NCBI GenBank assembly: GCA_965221115.1
Contig: CBDCRU010000002.1
Coordinates: 4,700-68,699, forward strand
Length of the DNA stretch: 64,000 nt
Direction: 5' to 3'
Source of the DNA: Alphaproteobacteria bacterium
GTDB lineage: Bacteria > Pseudomonadota > Alphaproteobacteria > SP197
Position numbers and translations under genes: made by a program. The number at the start of each line of letters is the position of its first letter. Position 1 is the first letter of the stretch. This document shows, one piece after another, positions 6,063 to 58,410 of the stretch. A model generated the notes under the pieces. The model was given only the letters and a program-made list of their open reading frames with translations. It was not told the origin of the DNA and searched no databases.

Positions 6063-6820
6063 CGCCGACCCGACCCCGCGTGGCGCTTCTCGTCACCTGT
6101 CTCGTCGATCTCTTCCGTCCGTCGGTCGGATTTGCCGCGGTGCGCCTGCTCGAGGATGCCGGGTGCGAGGTCGAGGTCCCGGCGCAATCGTGCTGCGGGC
6201 AGCCGGCCTACAATTCAGGCGAGCGGCACCTTGCCATGAAGGTCGCCCGGACCATGCTCGATGCGCTGGAAGACCATGACTACGTGGTGGCGCCCTCGGG
6301 CTCGTGCGCCGGCATGGTGATGCGGCACTACCCCACCCTCTTTGCCGGAACCCGTGACGAGGAGCGTGCCCGTGCCCTCAGCCAGCGCACCTTCGAACTC
6401 ACCCGATTTCTCGTCGAGGTCCGGGGCGTCACGATGACGGGAAGCCGCTTCGAAGGGACGGTCACCTGGCACGATTCATGCTCGTGCCTGCGCGAGTCCG
6501 GCACCCGGGAGGCCCCGAGGACCCTGCTCGCGGCCGTCGAGGGCGCGGTCCTCAAGGAGGCGAAGGACCGGGAGGTCTGTTGCGGATTCGGTGGCACCTT
6601 CTGCGTCAAGTACCCCGCCATCTCCACCGCCATGGCGAGGGACAAGGCGGCGAGTCTCGAGGAAACGGGCGCCGATACGGTTCTCTCGGCCGATCTCGGT
6701 TGCCTGCTCAACATTGCCGGGATTCTGCGCCGCCAGGGTTCGCGCATGAAGGTGCGTCACGTGGCGGAGGTGCTGGCGAATGACACGGCAGGACCTGCCA
6801 TCGGCGAGGCGAAGCCGTGA
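6059..6820 (+). CDS. lutA: Lactate utilization protein A, (Fe-S)-binding CCG-domain oxidoreductase
   Basis: RVALLVTCLVD..., CCGQPAYNSG and CCGFGGTFCVKYP repeats (CCG domains). ATG overlaps the mltA stop (ATGA). Confidence 0.85.
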   Translation: MTPTRPRVALLVTCLVDLFRPSVGFAAVRLLEDAGCEVEVPAQSCCGQPAYNSGERHLAMKVARTMLDALEDHDYVVAPSGSCAGMVMRHYPTLFAGTRDEERARALSQRTFELTRFLVEVRGVTMTGSRFEGTVTWHDSCSCLRESGTREAPRTLLAAVEGAVLKEAKDREVCCGFGGTFCVKYPAISTAMARDKAASLEETGADTVLSADLGCLLNIAGILRRQGSRMKVRHVAEVLANDTAGPAIGEAKP

Positions 6821-55509: not shown

Positions 55510-56070
55510 GGTTCCGGTATCCTCCTCAATGAATGGAGCGGCTCTCCATGTGGCCGCTTCCAGAATGCCGTGGATGTTAGCCCGCGCCACCCGGGCGCAC
55601 AAACGTCATCACCCCTGCATCGGAGATCGCGCGGGCGAATGCCTTGCATCAGTGAACGCGAGATGCAGGTTCCCGGCAACTGTGCCAAGGTGGTGACATG
55701 TGCGGCCGCTTCACACAGCGTTTCAGCTTGCGCGATCTCCACGAGTTGCTCGACCTCATCGGATCACCGGCGAACCTGGCGCCGCGCTACAACGTGGCGC
55801 CGGGACAGCAGGTCGCGACCGTGCGCGCCGAAGATGGCGGGCGGCGACTCGCCATGACGCGCTGGGGCCTGATCCCCTCGTGGGCGAAGGAACCCAACAT
55901 CGGCTACAGGTTGATCAACGCCCGCTCGGAAACGGTGCGGACGAAACCGTCATTCCGCTCGGCCTGGCGGTCGCGCCGCTGCCTGATCCCGGCCGACGGG
56001 TTCTACGAGTGGACGGGGGAGCGCAAGGCGAGGCAGCCCTAGCTGATCACGATGAAGGAGGATGGCCTTG

Positions 56071-56076
56071 TATGAC
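56071..56076 (+). promoter_or_regulatory. -10-like hexamer TATGAC at the IS left end (half of a junction promoter)
   Basis: Only pairs with a -35 (TTGCCA, 57886..57891) when the IS ends are abutted; the spacer is then 17 nt. Confidence 0.4.
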
Positions 56077-56082
56077 CAGGTT

Positions 56083-56365
56083 TCATTCCTGTGTTTATGA
56101 AGTTATCCACAGCAGTTGAGGTCGGGAGATTGTGGACAACCGCGGCTGTGGGAGAGCCATCCGGTCTATGGTTCCAGGGAGATTCCGCTCCCCCGCGCGA
56201 GCACGCACAGGGGAGCGGGGTGTGGGGATCTCACAATCCCCGCGGAGGTCGGTCGGACCGTTTTGGCCTTGGCTTTGTAGAGCCGCAAGAGAGCTTGGTC
56301 GGCCGACCTTCCTTGGCGTCCCTCGCGTCCTGAATGGATGCCTGGGCTTGGACCGTATCATCACA
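56083..56365 (+). ncRNA. Candidate IS110 bridge RNA in the left non-coding end; extent guessed
   Basis: 315-nt non-coding leader with hairpins at 56185..56218 (9 bp) and 56224..56241 (6 bp), CCGCGG at 56140 and 56240, GCCATCC at 56156 and ATGGATG at 56334 (see findings). Confidence 0.4.
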
Positions 56366-56384
56366 AGGCGAGGAGCAAGGGACG

Positions 56385-57332
56385 ATGGACAAGGTAGTGG
56401 CAGGGATCGATGTCAGCAAGGCCAGTCTGGACATCTATGCGGCGGGCCAGGAGCGTCGTTTTGCGAACGACGCCACGAGCTGGCGGGAGCTGGGCGCGTG
56501 GCTTCGGGGGCTCGAGGTGAGCCGGGTGGTGATGGAGGCGACGGGCCGCTACCACCGCAGGGTTCACCAGTGTCTTCATGACCGGGGCTTCGAGGTCGTC
56601 CTGGTCAACCCGTTGCGGGCCCGGCGCTTCGCCGAGGCGCTGGGCCATCTGGCGAAGACCGACCGCGTCGACGCCGTGATGCTGGCCAGGCTCGGGACGG
56701 TGCTGGGGGACCTTGAGCCCGTGGCCCCTCAGGATGCCTTCCTCAACCGCCTGGAGGATCTCCTGGTGTCGCGTGCCGCGCATGTCGATGCGCGAACCAT
56801 GCTGAGGCAGATGGCGGGTGAGGTGGACGGCGAGGGCGAGACCGTCACACGAGCCTCGGTGGCCGGTCTCGATGATCAGATCGCCGTGTTGGATGCGGCG
56901 ATCGAAGCCGTGATCACCCGTGATCCCGACCAGGCCCTGCGGTACAGCATCCTGACCTCGATCCCCGGCGTCGGTCCGGTGACCGCCGCCGCCCTTCTTT
57001 GCTGGATGCCCGAACTCGGCGGTCTCGACCGTCGCCAGGCGGCATCGTTGATCGGGGTGGCGCCGGTTGCCGACGACAGCGGAGAGCATCACGGCGCCCG
57101 GCACATCCGCGGCGGGCGCCGAAGGCCACGCGATCTCCTGTTCATGGCCGCAACAGCGGCGGCACGCTTCAACGCGGACCTCAGAATCGTGTTCGAACGC
57201 CTCAAGGCCGCCGGCAAGGCCCACAAGGTCGCGATCGTCGCCGTGATGCGCAAGCTCATCGTGCTGGCGAACACCCTGCTGCGGGAACAGCGCTGCTGGT
57301 TGCCTGAAGCGCCAGCACGGTCACCGGCGTGA
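56385..57332 (+). CDS. IS110-family transposase/recombinase (DEDD RuvC-like plus Tnp domain)
   Basis: GIDVSK, VVMEATGRYH, AKTDRVDA and LTSIPGVGPVTAA. ATG 56385 follows GAGGAG. Confidence 0.9.
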   Translation: MDKVVAGIDVSKASLDIYAAGQERRFANDATSWRELGAWLRGLEVSRVVMEATGRYHRRVHQCLHDRGFEVVLVNPLRARRFAEALGHLAKTDRVDAVMLARLGTVLGDLEPVAPQDAFLNRLEDLLVSRAAHVDARTMLRQMAGEVDGEGETVTRASVAGLDDQIAVLDAAIEAVITRDPDQALRYSILTSIPGVGPVTAAALLCWMPELGGLDRRQAASLIGVAPVADDSGEHHGARHIRGGRRRPRDLLFMAATAAARFNADLRIVFERLKAAGKAHKVAIVAVMRKLIVLANTLLREQRCWLPEAPARSPA

Positions 57333-57360
57333 TCAGCGACTGAACGAAGGAGACCCCCTC

Positions 57361-57651
57361 ATGGCCCTCACGCCTGCCGAGAAGCAGCGCCGGTACCGGG
57401 AACGCCGCAAGGCCGGCATCCCTCCCGTCCACACCCGAAAGCCCCGCGACCGCCGCTCCCGCGCGCAGCGCTGGCGCGATGCCGTGGCCGAGCTCGGTGC
57501 GTTGCAGGAGCATTATCGAGACTGTCTCGACAGGCTTCCGGACTCCCTCCGCGACACGGCCTACGGAGAACGCCTGCAGATCATCGTCGAGGCCGAGATC
57601 GAAGCCCTCGAGGAGATCGAGCTGCCGTGCGGCTACGGACGGGACACATGA
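57361..57651 (+). CDS. Hypothetical 96-aa protein inside the IS right arm
   Basis: Basic N-terminus LTPAEKQRRYRERRKAG and acidic helical C-part ending LPCGYGRDT. AAGGAG lies 7 nt upstream of the ATG. Confidence 0.55.
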   Translation: MALTPAEKQRRYRERRKAGIPPVHTRKPRDRRSRAQRWRDAVAELGALQEHYRDCLDRLPDSLRDTAYGERLQIIVEAEIEALEEIELPCGYGRDT

Positions 57652-57672
57652 CACCTGGAACCCCATTGAACG

Positions 57673-57737
57673 CGGTCACGTTACCATCCCTGAAGGCGCT
57701 GGACGGCCCTGTGGCCACGCCCAACGGTCACGTTACC
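57673..57737. repeat. Two copies of CGGTCACGTTACC, 52 nt apart, in the IS right arm
   Basis: Perfect 13-mers at 57673..57685 and 57725..57737. A third partial CGGTCAC is at 57795. Confidence 0.85.
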
Positions 57738-57885
57738 GCGATCAATAGAAGACAGCCCGATCATGCTGCAGGGATCACGAACTGCATGTCTCCCCGGTCA
57801 CAGGGCACACACATTGGCAAAGTGGAACGCCAGATCGCATGTGGACAAGCACAGGAAACATCATCCTGGACACCCACAAATAACC

Positions 57886-57891
57886 TTGCCA
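57886..57891 (+). promoter_or_regulatory. -35-like hexamer TTGCCA, 13 nt from the IS right end
   Basis: See the junction-promoter finding. Confidence 0.4.
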
Positions 57892-58410
57892 GGGAACATG
57901 GATGCTCTTCTGCTTCGCCGGCCTGTGGGAGCGCTGGAGGGTGCCGGCCGGTCTGGCGCTGACAGGAGCGCTGGCCGACTTGGAGGAGGGCGACGCGCTG
58001 GAGACCTGCACCATCCTGACGACGGCAGCCAACACGGACATATCGCGGATACACCACCGCATGCCGGTGATCCTGCCGTTCGAGTCATATGAGCCATGGC
58101 TTGCGGGAGACGACATGTCTCTCGGTCCCTCTCCGCAGGACACGATGACCCTTCATCGGGTGAGTCCACTGGTGAACAAGGCCACCAACGATGATCCTCG
58201 CTGTGTCGAGCCTGTGGACTGAAAGCGGGCCCATGCACGCATTGCACCCTGATTCAGGCCGGCCACGCGTTCATCTCTGAACGACATGCCGTCCATCTCG
58301 TTCATGCAGTGTCCGGAACAAGGCGCTCATTCGGGCGCCTGGTACCGCAGATGCGCGGCCCGACATGCCGGACGACAGCATGATCATCCGTTGTGCGGGG
58401 AGGACGAGGA

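What the first reader, a model, noticed from the sequence alone, without database searches (positions are those of the whole stretch)
56083..56365. Candidate bridge (guide) RNA in the left end of the IS110 element, with 7-mers matching the target flank and the IS terminus
The 315 nt between the IS left end and the recombinase ATG (56385) contain no credible ORF and are densely structured. There is a 9-bp hairpin CCGCTCCCC/GGGGAGCGG (56185..56218) and a 6-bp hairpin GGGGAT/ATCCCC (56224..56241). CCGCGG occurs at 56140 and 56240, and could close a domain. GGTCGGCCGACC is a palindrome at 56297..56308. GCCATCC (56156..56162) is the exact reverse complement of GGATGGC (56060..56066), the 7 nt immediately 5' of the CT core in the disrupted target. 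ATGGATG (56334..56340) is identical to the last 7 nt of the IS (57898..57904). TCATCACAAG (56358..56367) matches the reverse complement of core plus left end (TCATACAAG) apart from one extra C. The two perfect 7-mers lie 178 nt apart. IS110-group elements are known to encode a ~180-nt bispecific bridge RNA in this position, with one target-binding and one donor-binding loop. A single 7-mer match in ~630 searched positions has roughly a 4% chance expectation, so this is suggestive, not proof. I found no convincing right-target guide.
Basis: partly seen in the sequence, partly recalled or inferred. Interest (0 to 1): 0.85.

Follow-up and report, generated by a model that had tools for sequence, protein, structure and literature searches.

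The report
Bridge RNA of an IS110 element

Summary

A 1,836-bp IS110-group element (56069-57904, CT core on both sides) interrupts an SRAP gene. The 316 nt upstream of its recombinase gene encode a canonical bridge RNA.

- **Donor-binding loop.** ATGGATGCCT (56334-56343) is the left donor guide. TCATCACAAG (56358-56367) is the right donor guide with one bulged C, and it co-varies with the first bases of the element in relatives.
- **Target-binding loop.** GCCATCC (56156) is in the wrong sense, lies outside the conserved RNA, and is a chance match.
- **Real target guides.** They are TTTTGGCCT (56261-56269) and CAAGAGAG (56286-56293). These are the only hypervariable blocks in an otherwise conserved left end.

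In 36 guide/target records from relatives, the guides track each copy's own insertion site (0 of 20,000 permutations reach the observed score). A 98%-identical sister copy with the same guides sits at CT-CTCTTG, a perfect match to the right target guide. Four helices are supported by compensatory changes.

Expression was not tested.

This is a new member of a known kind, of modest interest. Side observations are conserved TGTGGAnAA subterminal motifs and a 96-aa passenger ORF.

The parts
56069..57904 (+). IS110-group insertion sequence, 1,836 bp, flanked by the CT core (56067-68 and 57905-06), inserted in an SRAP gene
   Evidence: Removing it restores the SRAP frame. The ends TGTATGACC... and ...AACATGGATG are conserved in relatives sitting in unrelated flanks.
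56060..56068 (+). Left target plus core of this insertion: GGATGGC+CT
57905..57913 (+). Core plus right target of this insertion: CT+CTTCTGC
56071..56076 (+). TATGAC, the -10 half of the promoter formed only at the right-end/left-end junction of the excised circle
   Evidence: The junction reads TTGCCA, 17 nt, TATGAC. The same split with a 17-nt spacer recurs in relatives, for example TTGACT-17-TATGTT and TTGACT-17-TATAAA. Its function is inferred from IS621.
57886..57891 (+). TTGCCA, the -35 half of the junction promoter, in the right end
56182..56221 (+).
   Evidence: RNAalifold on close relatives. A long hairpin at the same place with unrelated sequence is seen in 13 diverse relatives.
56222..56243 (+).
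   Evidence: One pair changes on both sides (AU to GC) among close relatives.
56245..56260 (+). Target-binding module, base stem, 5' arm
   Evidence: Helix 1: 15 pairs, 96% of cells paired, 7 pairs with changes on both sides.
56261..56269 (+). Left target guide TTTTGGCCT, same sense as left target plus core. The effective part is about TTGGC+CT.
   Evidence: Hypervariable block in a conserved left end. It tracks each copy's own left flank. Here it matches 6 of 9 positions against GGATGGCCT.
56270..56285 (+). Target-binding module, apical stem-loop
   Evidence: Helix 2: 6 pairs, 88% of cells paired, 2 pairs with changes on both sides.
56286..56293 (+). Right target guide CAAGAGAG, complementary to core plus right target. 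The ideal right target is CT+CTCTTG.
   Evidence: Hypervariable block. It matches perfectly in L001, L004 and L014. Sister copy L080, with the same guide, sits at CTCTCTTG, 8 of 8. Here it matches 6 of 8 against CTCTTCTG.
56296..56310 (+).
56317..56331 (+). Donor-binding module, base stem, 5' arm
   Evidence: Helix 3: 14 pairs, 8 with changes on both sides.
56334..56343 (+). Left donor guide ATGGATGCCT, same sense as the right-end terminus ATGGATG plus CT, with one extra C
   Evidence: Conserved in the family. ATGGATGCT occurs downstream of the gene and marks the right end in relatives.
56343..56355 (+). Donor-binding module, short apical stem-loop
   Evidence: Helix 4: 4 pairs, 80% of cells paired, 1 pair with changes on both sides. 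This is the weakest helix.
56356..56367 (+). Right donor guide. The effective part is TCATCACAAG (56358-67), complementary to CT+TGTATGA with one bulged C.
   Evidence: Guide and first bases of the element co-vary: CACAAG/TGT, CATAAG/TAT (L003, L004), CATGAG/CAT (L007, L008), CACGAG/CGT (L015), CGCGAG/CGT through G-T wobble.
56371..56384 (+). Donor-binding module, base stem, 3' arm AGGAGCAAGGGACG. It contains the recombinase ribosome-binding site and ends at the start codon.
   Evidence: Sequestration of the ribosome-binding site is inferred.
56385..57332 (+). Bridge recombinase gene, 315 aa
   Evidence: Pfam DEDD_Tnp_IS110 plus Transposase_20. NCBIfam NF033542 'IS110 family RNA-guided transposase', 206.8 bits against a cut-off of 140. 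Full-length match to the IS621 transposase 8WT6, E 5.8e-29. D9, E51, D93, D96 and S232 are invariant.
57898..57904 (+). Left donor: the last 7 nt of the element, ATGGATG
56069..56075 (+). Right donor: the first 7 nt of the element, TGTATGA

Best explanation
The non-coding left end of this IS110-group element encodes a bridge RNA with the architecture described for IS621, plus one additional 5' hairpin.

**Layout**
- Two 5' hairpins: 56182-56243.
- Target-binding module: 56245-56310. Its internal loop carries the left target guide TTTTGGCCT and the right target guide CAAGAGAG.
- Donor-binding module: 56317-56384. Its internal loop carries the left donor guide ATGGATGCCT and the right donor guide TCATCACAAG.

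**Proposed mechanism.** This is inferred from IS621 (PMC11208160, PMC11208158).
1. Excision joins the right and left ends into a circle.
2. The junction builds a promoter, TTGCCA-17 nt-TATGAC, that transcribes the left end.
3. The RNA binds the recombinase encoded at 56385-57332.
4. The donor loop pairs with both strands of the circle junction, ATGGATG-CT-TGTATGA.
5. The target loop pairs with both strands of a genomic site resembling TTGGC-CT-CTCTTG.
6. The recombinase exchanges strands at the CT core.

**This copy.** It sits at a near-cognate site in an SRAP gene, GATGGC-CT-CTTCTG, which matches 8 of 12 non-core positions.

**Shown versus inferred.** Shown here are the sequence anatomy, the conserved helices, and the co-variation of guides with target flanks and with element ends. 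Transcription, RNA ends, protein binding and activity are inferred.
For: 1. **Recombinase.** It is a full-length IS110-family RNA-guided transposase with intact catalytic residues.
2. **Variable blocks.** Among close relatives the left end is about 90% identical, except for two blocks of 7-9 nt at 56261-69 and 56286-93.
3. **Guides match each copy's own flanks in the senses IS621 predicts.**
   - L001: TGGTTCCT against CGGTTCCT, and CAGGTGAG equals the reverse complement of CTCACCTG.
   - L004: TGTGCCAG equals the reverse complement of CTGGCACA.
   - L014: TGATCAAG equals the reverse complement of CTTGATCA.
   - L051 differs from L047 by a single guide base (GGGAAAG against GGGCAAG), and its target differs to match (CTTTCCC against CTTGCCC).
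4. **Permutation test.** Over 36 unique records and 22 distinct guide pairs, own-site matches average 3.69 + 4.97 of 7 + 7 non-core positions. Cross pairings average 2.22 + 1.98. None of 20,000 permutations reaches the observed total.
5. **Sister copy.** L080 has a 98%-identical recombinase and identical guides. Its right target CTCTCTTG matches the right target guide 8 of 8. Two metagenome copies also agree with their own guides.
6. **This window's site.** It ranks among the best 14 of 6,335 CT sites in the window against the ideal target.
7. **Donor side.** The right donor guide co-varies with the first three bases of the element, which read TGT, TAT, CAT or CGT.
8. **Helices.** Four helices, 39 pairs, 88.5% of cells paired against 33-50% when partners are slid. 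Eighteen pairs change on both sides. None of 500 shuffles reaches the observed covariation score.
9. **5' hairpins.** Both are preserved as structures with unrelated sequences.
10. **Junction promoter.** The split with a fixed 17-nt spacer is conserved.
Against: - No expression data exist. The RNA's 5' and 3' ends are unknown.
- No sigma-70-like promoter was found inside the integrated left end.
- This copy's own target is imperfect: 4 of 12 non-core positions mismatch. Sister copy L080 matches the left target guide at only 5 of the 7 effective positions. The 5' two or three bases of the 9-nt left target guide block may therefore not be guide positions.
- The register of the left guides varies by one base between relatives. 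The left donor guide has an extra C relative to the donor. I explain this only by a bulge or by an unpaired second core position.
- The apical stem of the donor module is weak, at 3-4 pairs.
- Rfam has no family that recognises this RNA, so there is no independent model-based confirmation.
- The alignment used for pair counts came from MAFFT, and I chose the structure after looking at it.
Confidence: 0.9

Rival explanations
1. [quoted passage not shown]
For: It is an exact 7-mer reverse complement of the 7 nt next to the core.
Against: - The sense is opposite to the left target guide of the IS621 model.
- At least one such match among the eight probes occurs in 17% of shuffles.
- The segment lies in a poorly conserved stretch that is interrupted by 58 nt in L001.
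- It sits inside a helix of the minimum-energy fold.
- In relatives the homologous bases (GCGCCCG, GGCCCGG, GCCATGC, GCTGTCC) do not match their own flanks.
- L080 keeps GCCATCC although its left target is ACATCGC.
Confidence: 0.02
2. The structured left end is only a 5' untranslated leader that controls recombinase translation by sequestering the ribosome-binding site. It has no guide function.
For: - The 3' arm of the last helix (56371-84) contains AGGAG and ends at the ATG.
- Leader structure regulating an IS110-family transposase is reported for ISPpu9 (reference 19 of PMC11208160, seen).
Against: A pure leader does not explain why two loop segments track the flanking target DNA, or why two others track the element's own ends. 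The two roles do not exclude each other. Occlusion of the ribosome-binding site is probably an additional property of the same RNA.
Confidence: 0.05
3. The element belongs to the IS1111 group, and its guide RNA is encoded in the long right end (57333-57904) rather than the left end.
For: The stretch after the recombinase gene is long (572 nt). It contains repeats: GGTCACGTTACC twice, and TGTGGACAA.
Against: - That length is mostly a 96-aa ORF specific to this sub-lineage. Relatives without it are 1.38-1.47 kb and have left ends longer than their right ends.
- All four guide segments lie in the left end.
- No long subterminal inverted repeats were seen at the ends.
Confidence: 0.02

Closest known systems
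IS621 bridge RNA of Escherichia coli (Durrant et al. 2024, PMC11208160; Hiraizumi et al. 2024, PMC11208158)
   Same: - Encoded in the left end, upstream of a DEDD plus Tnp-domain recombinase homologous to IS621 (E 5.8e-29).
- A 5' hairpin region followed by two hairpins with large internal loops.
- The first loop is variable and reads the target. The second is conserved and reads the donor.
- Left guides are in the sense of the DNA top strand and right guides are antisense.
- CT core.
- The right donor guide pairs discontiguously.
- A promoter is split across the circle junction.
- The base after the right target guide (C at 56294) can pair with donor position 7 (G), like a handshake guide. 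This last point is inference only.
   Different: - Two 5' hairpins instead of one.
- Left end about 316 nt, against a whole right-end/left-end junction of 298 bp in IS621. A junction transcript would therefore carry about 100 nt of extra leader.
- The right target guide is longer (about 6+2 nt, against 4 non-core positions in IS621). The left target guide appears shorter in effect (about 5+2).
- The left donor guide has an extra C.
- The 3' arm of the donor module overlaps the ribosome-binding site.
- Recombinase identity to IS621 is low.
- Nothing has been tested experimentally.
Predicted bridge RNAs of other IS110-group elements (Durrant et al. report a predicted bridge RNA in 85.7% of ISfinder IS110s, for example ISPpu10, ISAar29, ISHne5)
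   Same: Same kind of prediction from the same kind of evidence: covariation of loops with targets and donors.
   Different: This clade is known to me only from uncultured alphaproteobacterial genomes and metagenomes. The nearest annotated plasmid-borne transposases are below 50% identical. I could not compare with ISfinder entries or with the published covariance models.
IS1111-group guide RNAs (seekRNA / right-end bridge RNA)
   Same: Same recombinase superfamily and the same logic of dual target and donor recognition.
   Different: Those are encoded in the right end, and the elements have long subterminal inverted repeats. Here the RNA is in the left end.
ISPpu9 5' leader and small-RNA control of transposase expression (Gomez-Garcia et al. 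2021, cited in PMC11208160)
   Same: The leader structure upstream of an IS110-family transposase can occlude translation signals.
   Different: Here the occluding helix is the base stem of the donor-binding module. No antisense RNA has been shown.

Membership tests
IS110-group bridge RNA | Encoded in the non-coding left end, upstream of an IS110-family DEDD/Tnp recombinase | tested here: met
   The element ends were defined from the restored SRAP frame and from relatives.
IS110-group bridge RNA | [quoted passage not shown] | tested here: met
   There are two 5' stem-loops here rather than one.
IS110-group bridge RNA | First internal loop poorly conserved, second internal loop conserved among orthologues | tested here: met
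   Alignments.
IS110-group bridge RNA | Left target guide equals the sense of left target plus core. Right target guide is complementary to core plus right target. Both co-vary with insertion sites. | tested here: met
   (0 of 20,000 permutations). The register of the left guide shifts by one base in some relatives.
IS110-group bridge RNA | Left donor guide equals the sense of the right-end terminus plus core. Right donor guide is complementary to core plus left-end terminus, pairing discontiguously. | tested here: met
   Four different states of the first three element bases are matched by the guide. There is one bulged C.
IS110-group bridge RNA | Dinucleotide core present on both sides of the element and represented in the guides | tested here: met
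   CT at 56067-68 and 57905-06. The guides end in CT or AG. In some relatives and in the left donor guide, the second core base is replaced or offset.
IS110-group bridge RNA | A promoter reconstituted across the right-end/left-end junction drives the RNA | tested here: inconclusive
   The sequence fits: TTGCCA-17-TATGAC, conserved in relatives. The consensus scan could not see a split promoter, and no transcript data exist.
IS110-group bridge RNA | The RNA is expressed, binds the recombinase, and is required and programmable for recombination | not testable with these tools
   Needs RNA-seq, binding assays and recombination assays.
IS110-group bridge RNA | Recognised by a curated covariance model | not testable with these tools
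   Rfam 15 returned no bridge RNA family. The only hits were sub-threshold matches to sX15 on the opposite strand. The published models are not available here.
IS1111 group | Guide RNA in the right end, a short left end, and long subterminal inverted repeats | tested here: not met
   All guides lie in the left end. The left end is 316 nt. No long inverted repeats are visible at the termini.
IS110 family RNA-guided transposase (NCBIfam NF033542) | Score above the curated cut-off, with DEDD and Ser catalytic residues present | tested here: met
   206.8 bits against a cut-off of 140. D9, E51, D93, D96 and S232 are invariant and align with the corresponding IS621 motifs.

The most novel reading that the evidence does not exclude
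This alphaproteobacterial clade may have a regulatory layer beyond the canonical two-component bridge system. The features that suggest it are:
- DnaA-box-like TGTGGAnAA / TTATCCACA motifs at fixed subterminal positions in both ends, flanking the junction promoter.
- A second conserved 5' hairpin.
- In this sub-lineage, a conserved 96-aa protein next to GGTAACGTTACC palindromes.

Together these could couple bridge RNA and recombinase expression, or synapsis, to a host factor such as DnaA or to an element-encoded regulator.
Probability: 0.12. Interest if true: 0.55.

Novelty: new member of a known kind. Interest (0 to 1): 0.3.

Why it matters
- It gives a cleanly delimited, covariation-backed bridge RNA with all four guides assigned, for a recombinase clade known only from uncultured Alphaproteobacteria.
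- That makes it a candidate orthologue for anyone surveying bridge recombinases. It has a longer right target guide than IS621.
- It documents a natural insertion at a near-cognate site (4 mismatches in 12 non-core positions) that inactivated an SRAP gene.
- It corrects the first-stage reading. Exact 7-mer matches to flanks are weak evidence on their own, and the sense of the match matters.
- It does not change what is known about how these elements work.

Tried and rejected
- **Rfam scan** of the window region and of nine relatives. There is no bridge RNA family. Only weak opposite-strand sX15 hits came back.
- **Megablast of the element against plasmids.** No match.
- **Search for further copies in the window.** None.
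- **Exact look-up of the window's recombinase in the assembly collection.** Not on record.
- **Metagenome scan for the exact target-loop sequence.** No match. A degenerate pattern then found two copies.
- **Promoter scan inside the integrated left end and right end.** Nothing. A -10-like TATGGT at 56167-72 just before stem-loop 1 recurs loosely in relatives. I could not find a convincing -35, so I do not claim an internal promoter.
- **RNAalifold on the broad alignment.** It failed to recover the donor module, so I specified that structure myself and tested it by pair counts and slide controls.
- **CCGCGG pair as a domain closure.** Rejected. The first copy is in a variable stretch and the second is part of stem-loop 2.
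- **Handshake-guide covariation on the donor side.** Rejected as untestable. Target position 7 is C in nearly all relatives, so there is no variation to test.
- **Extended ORF starting at ATG 56334.** This ATG is the left donor guide's own ATG, in frame with the gene. Rejected as the start, because homologues are 315 aa and start at the position equivalent to 56385.

Full report
**What is at the locus**

The window carries a 1,836-bp element at 56069-57904, flanked on both sides by CT (56067-68 and 57905-06). Removing the element and one CT restores a single SRAP (SOS response associated peptidase) reading frame across 55698-58222. A homologue in L012 is uninterrupted at exactly this point and reads ...RQPWLITMKRGGLFCFAGLWE....

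The element encodes a 315-aa protein at 56385-57332.
- Pfam finds DEDD_Tnp_IS110 and Transposase_20.
- NCBIfam NF033542 "IS110 family RNA-guided transposase" scores 206.8 bits against a cut-off of 140.
- It matches the IS621 transposase structure 8WT6 over its full length, E 5.8e-29.
- D9, E51, D93, D96 and S232 are invariant in 24 homologues and align with the IS621 motifs GID, EATG, KTDxVDA and SG.

**Checking the observation**

Every string and coordinate in the finding is exact. The left end folds better than dinucleotide shuffles: z = -3.6 for 56069-56384 and z = -4.7 for 56180-56384.

The 7-mer evidence alone is weak. I took the four flank 7-mers in both senses as probes. At least one hit in the left end occurs in 17% of shuffles, and two hits occur in 1.6%.

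**The reference model**

Durrant et al. (PMC11208160) state the pairing rules.
[quoted passage not shown] - The donor loop is built the same way.
- The core is included in all four pairings.
- The right donor guide pairs discontiguously, nine RNA bases on seven DNA bases.

The expected guide sequences for this element follow from these rules.

| Guide | Expected sequence |
|---|---|
| Left target guide | GGATGGCCT |
| Right target guide | reverse complement of CTCTTCTG... |
| Left donor guide | ATGGATGCT |
| Right donor guide | TCATACAAG |

**Relatives**

A protein search found homologues from 98% down to about 46% identity. A scan of one genome per species returned 79 loci, almost all from uncultured Alphaproteobacteria. 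Close relatives share the termini TGTATGACC... and ...AACATGGATG but sit in unrelated flanks, always with CT on both sides.

**The target-binding loop**

Aligned left ends of close relatives are about 90% identical, except for two blocks. In window coordinates these blocks are 56261-69 (TTTTGGCCT) and 56286-93 (CAAGAGAG). Each copy's blocks match its own flanks in the senses the model predicts.

| Copy | Left guide / left target | Right guide / right target |
|---|---|---|
| L001 | TGGTTCCT / CGGTTCCT | CAGGTGAG = reverse complement of CTCACCTG |
| L004 | TTCGCCT / TTCGCCT | TGTGCCAG = reverse complement of CTGGCACA |
| L014 | TGGCCCT / TGGCCCT | TGATCAAG = reverse complement of CTTGATCA |

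More distant relatives keep the same frame with other guides. L051 differs from its sister copies by one guide base (GGGAAAG against GGGCAAG), and its target differs to match (CTTTCCC against CTTGCCC).

I tested this over 36 unique guide/target records and 22 distinct guide pairs.
- Own-site matches average 3.69 + 4.97 of 7 + 7 non-core positions.
- Cross pairings average 2.22 + 1.98.
- None of 20,000 permutations of targets among guide pairs reaches the observed total.

Other copies add direct support.
- L080 comes from another assembly. Its recombinase is 98% identical and its guides are identical to the window's. It sits at ...ACATCGCCT | element | CTCTCTTGAGC. Its right target matches CAAGAGAG 8 of 8, and its left target matches the effective guide 5 of 7.
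- Two further metagenome copies agree with their own guides.

For the window itself, the ideal site would be TTTGGC-CT-CTCTTG. The real site is GATGGC-CT-CTTCTG, which matches 8 of 12 non-core positions. That still places it among the best 14 of 6,335 CT sites on both strands of the emptied window. It is therefore a near-cognate site, not a perfect one.

**The donor-binding loop**

ATGGATGCCT (56334-43) is conserved across the family. ATGGATGCT occurs downstream of the gene and marks the right end in relatives.

The right donor guide co-varies with the first three bases of the element.

| Guide | First bases of element | Copies |
|---|---|---|
| CACAAG | TGT | window group |
| CATAAG | TAT | L003, L004 |
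| CATGAG | CAT | L007, L008 |
| CACGAG | CGT | L015 |
| CGCGAG | CGT (G-T wobble) | several |

One bulged base is present throughout.

**Secondary structure**

I specified four helices on the 29-sequence alignment A3: a base stem and an apical stem for each module.
- 88.5% of cells are paired, against 33-50% when the 3' partners are slid by 1-3 columns.
- 18 of 39 pairs change on both sides.
- None of 500 shuffles reaches the observed covariation score.
- The two base stems carry 7 and 8 compensatory pairs.
- The apical stem of the donor module is the weakest helix.

The guides lie on the two sides of the internal loops. The 3' arm of the donor-module base stem (56371-84) contains the ribosome-binding site and ends at the start codon. 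The folded RNA would therefore probably mask recombinase translation. This is inference, and it resembles what is reported for ISPpu9.

The RNA of this clade therefore probably has two 5' stem-loops, where the IS621 consensus has one.

**Expression**

No sigma-70-like promoter was found in the integrated left end. Joining the ends gives TTGCCA (57886-91), 17 nt, TATGAC (56071-76). The same split with the same spacing recurs in relatives. IS621 uses such a junction promoter for its bridge RNA.

The ends of the RNA here are unknown. A junction transcript would carry about 100 nt of leader before stem-loop 1.

**Why GCCATCC is rejected**

- It is in the wrong sense.
- It lies in a variable stretch with a 58-nt insertion in L001.
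- It lies inside a helix of the minimum-energy fold.
- The homologous bases in relatives do not match their own flanks.
- L080 retains it although its left target differs.
- A chance hit of this kind is expected in 17% of shuffles.

**Comparison with what is known**

This is an IS110-group bridge RNA by every sequence-level criterion I could test. It differs from IS621 in detail:
- a second 5' hairpin
- a longer left end
- a longer right target guide, and an apparently shorter effective left target guide
- an extra C in the left donor guide
- overlap of the last helix with the ribosome-binding site

Durrant et al. predict bridge RNAs in 85.7% of catalogued IS110 elements. Finding one here is expected. 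Rfam has no model for it.

**Verdict**

The finding is real, and the general interpretation is right. The donor guides are right. The target guide is wrong, and I have replaced it with a well-supported pair. This is a new member of a known kind, of modest interest.

Noticed in passing
window 56103-56111 (TTATCCACA), 56131-56139 (TGTGGACAA), 56146-56153 (CTGTGGGA), 57840-57848 (TGTGGACAA); same positions in L001-L052: A DnaA-box-like motif, TGTGGAnAA (reverse complement TTnTCCACA; perfect TTATCCACA in several copies), sits at fixed subterminal positions across the whole family. The positions are about 35 and about 64 nt from the left end and about 65-85 nt from the right end. Its density is 1.79 per kb inside elements against 0.12 per kb in their flanks. 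I found no paper linking IS110 elements with DnaA boxes. Possible readings are a host-factor site, a recombinase site, or a regulatory site around the junction promoter. It is unexplained.
   Followed up: partly
window 57361-57651 (+), and 57674-57685 and 57726-57737: A 96-aa ORF follows the recombinase gene. It has no Pfam or NCBIfam match. It is conserved in the sub-lineage (L001, L002, L017, L080, L081), with many synonymous differences. It accounts for the element being 1.8 kb rather than the 1.4 kb of more distant relatives. Downstream lie near-palindromes GGTCACGTTACC (consensus GGTAACGTTACC), two copies here and four in L003/L004. This looks like a small DNA-binding protein with its operators.
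   Followed up: partly
window 56040-56042: The interrupted SRAP gene also has a TAG stop 26 nt upstream of the insertion, where the L012 homologue has Trp (...RQPWLITMK...). The gene has therefore taken a second inactivating hit.
   Followed up: yes
window 56231-56407 (-) and L007:2839-2998 (-): The Rfam family sX15 (a Xanthomonas small RNA) matches the opposite strand of the bridge RNA region in two family members at sub-threshold scores (25 and 30.5 bits, against a gathering score of 55). The original paper describes sX15 and asX7 as complementary plasmid-encoded RNAs with 10 homologues in Stenotrophomonas maltophilia (PMC3300014). The sX15/asX7 locus may be the left end of an IS110-family element, with asX7 on the bridge RNA strand.
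   Followed up: partly
window 56334-56336: The ATG inside the left donor guide is in frame with the recombinase gene and gives a 332-aa ORF. A gene caller could pick this start and so hide the donor loop inside a coding sequence. Homologues are 315 aa.
   Followed up: yes
L001:2551-2625 (-) and 6189-6407 (-); L019:1477-1654; L047:1076-1255: Group II intron RNA domains lie next to several relatives of the element. In L001 one hit ends exactly at the element's left boundary. I did not examine whether these elements insert into introns.
   Followed up: no
L002:1221-3000 and L017:974-3000: In two relatives the left end, including the bridge RNA, is separated from the recombinase gene by about 1.8-2 kb of unrelated DNA. 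This is presumably a secondary insertion right at the start codon.
   Followed up: no
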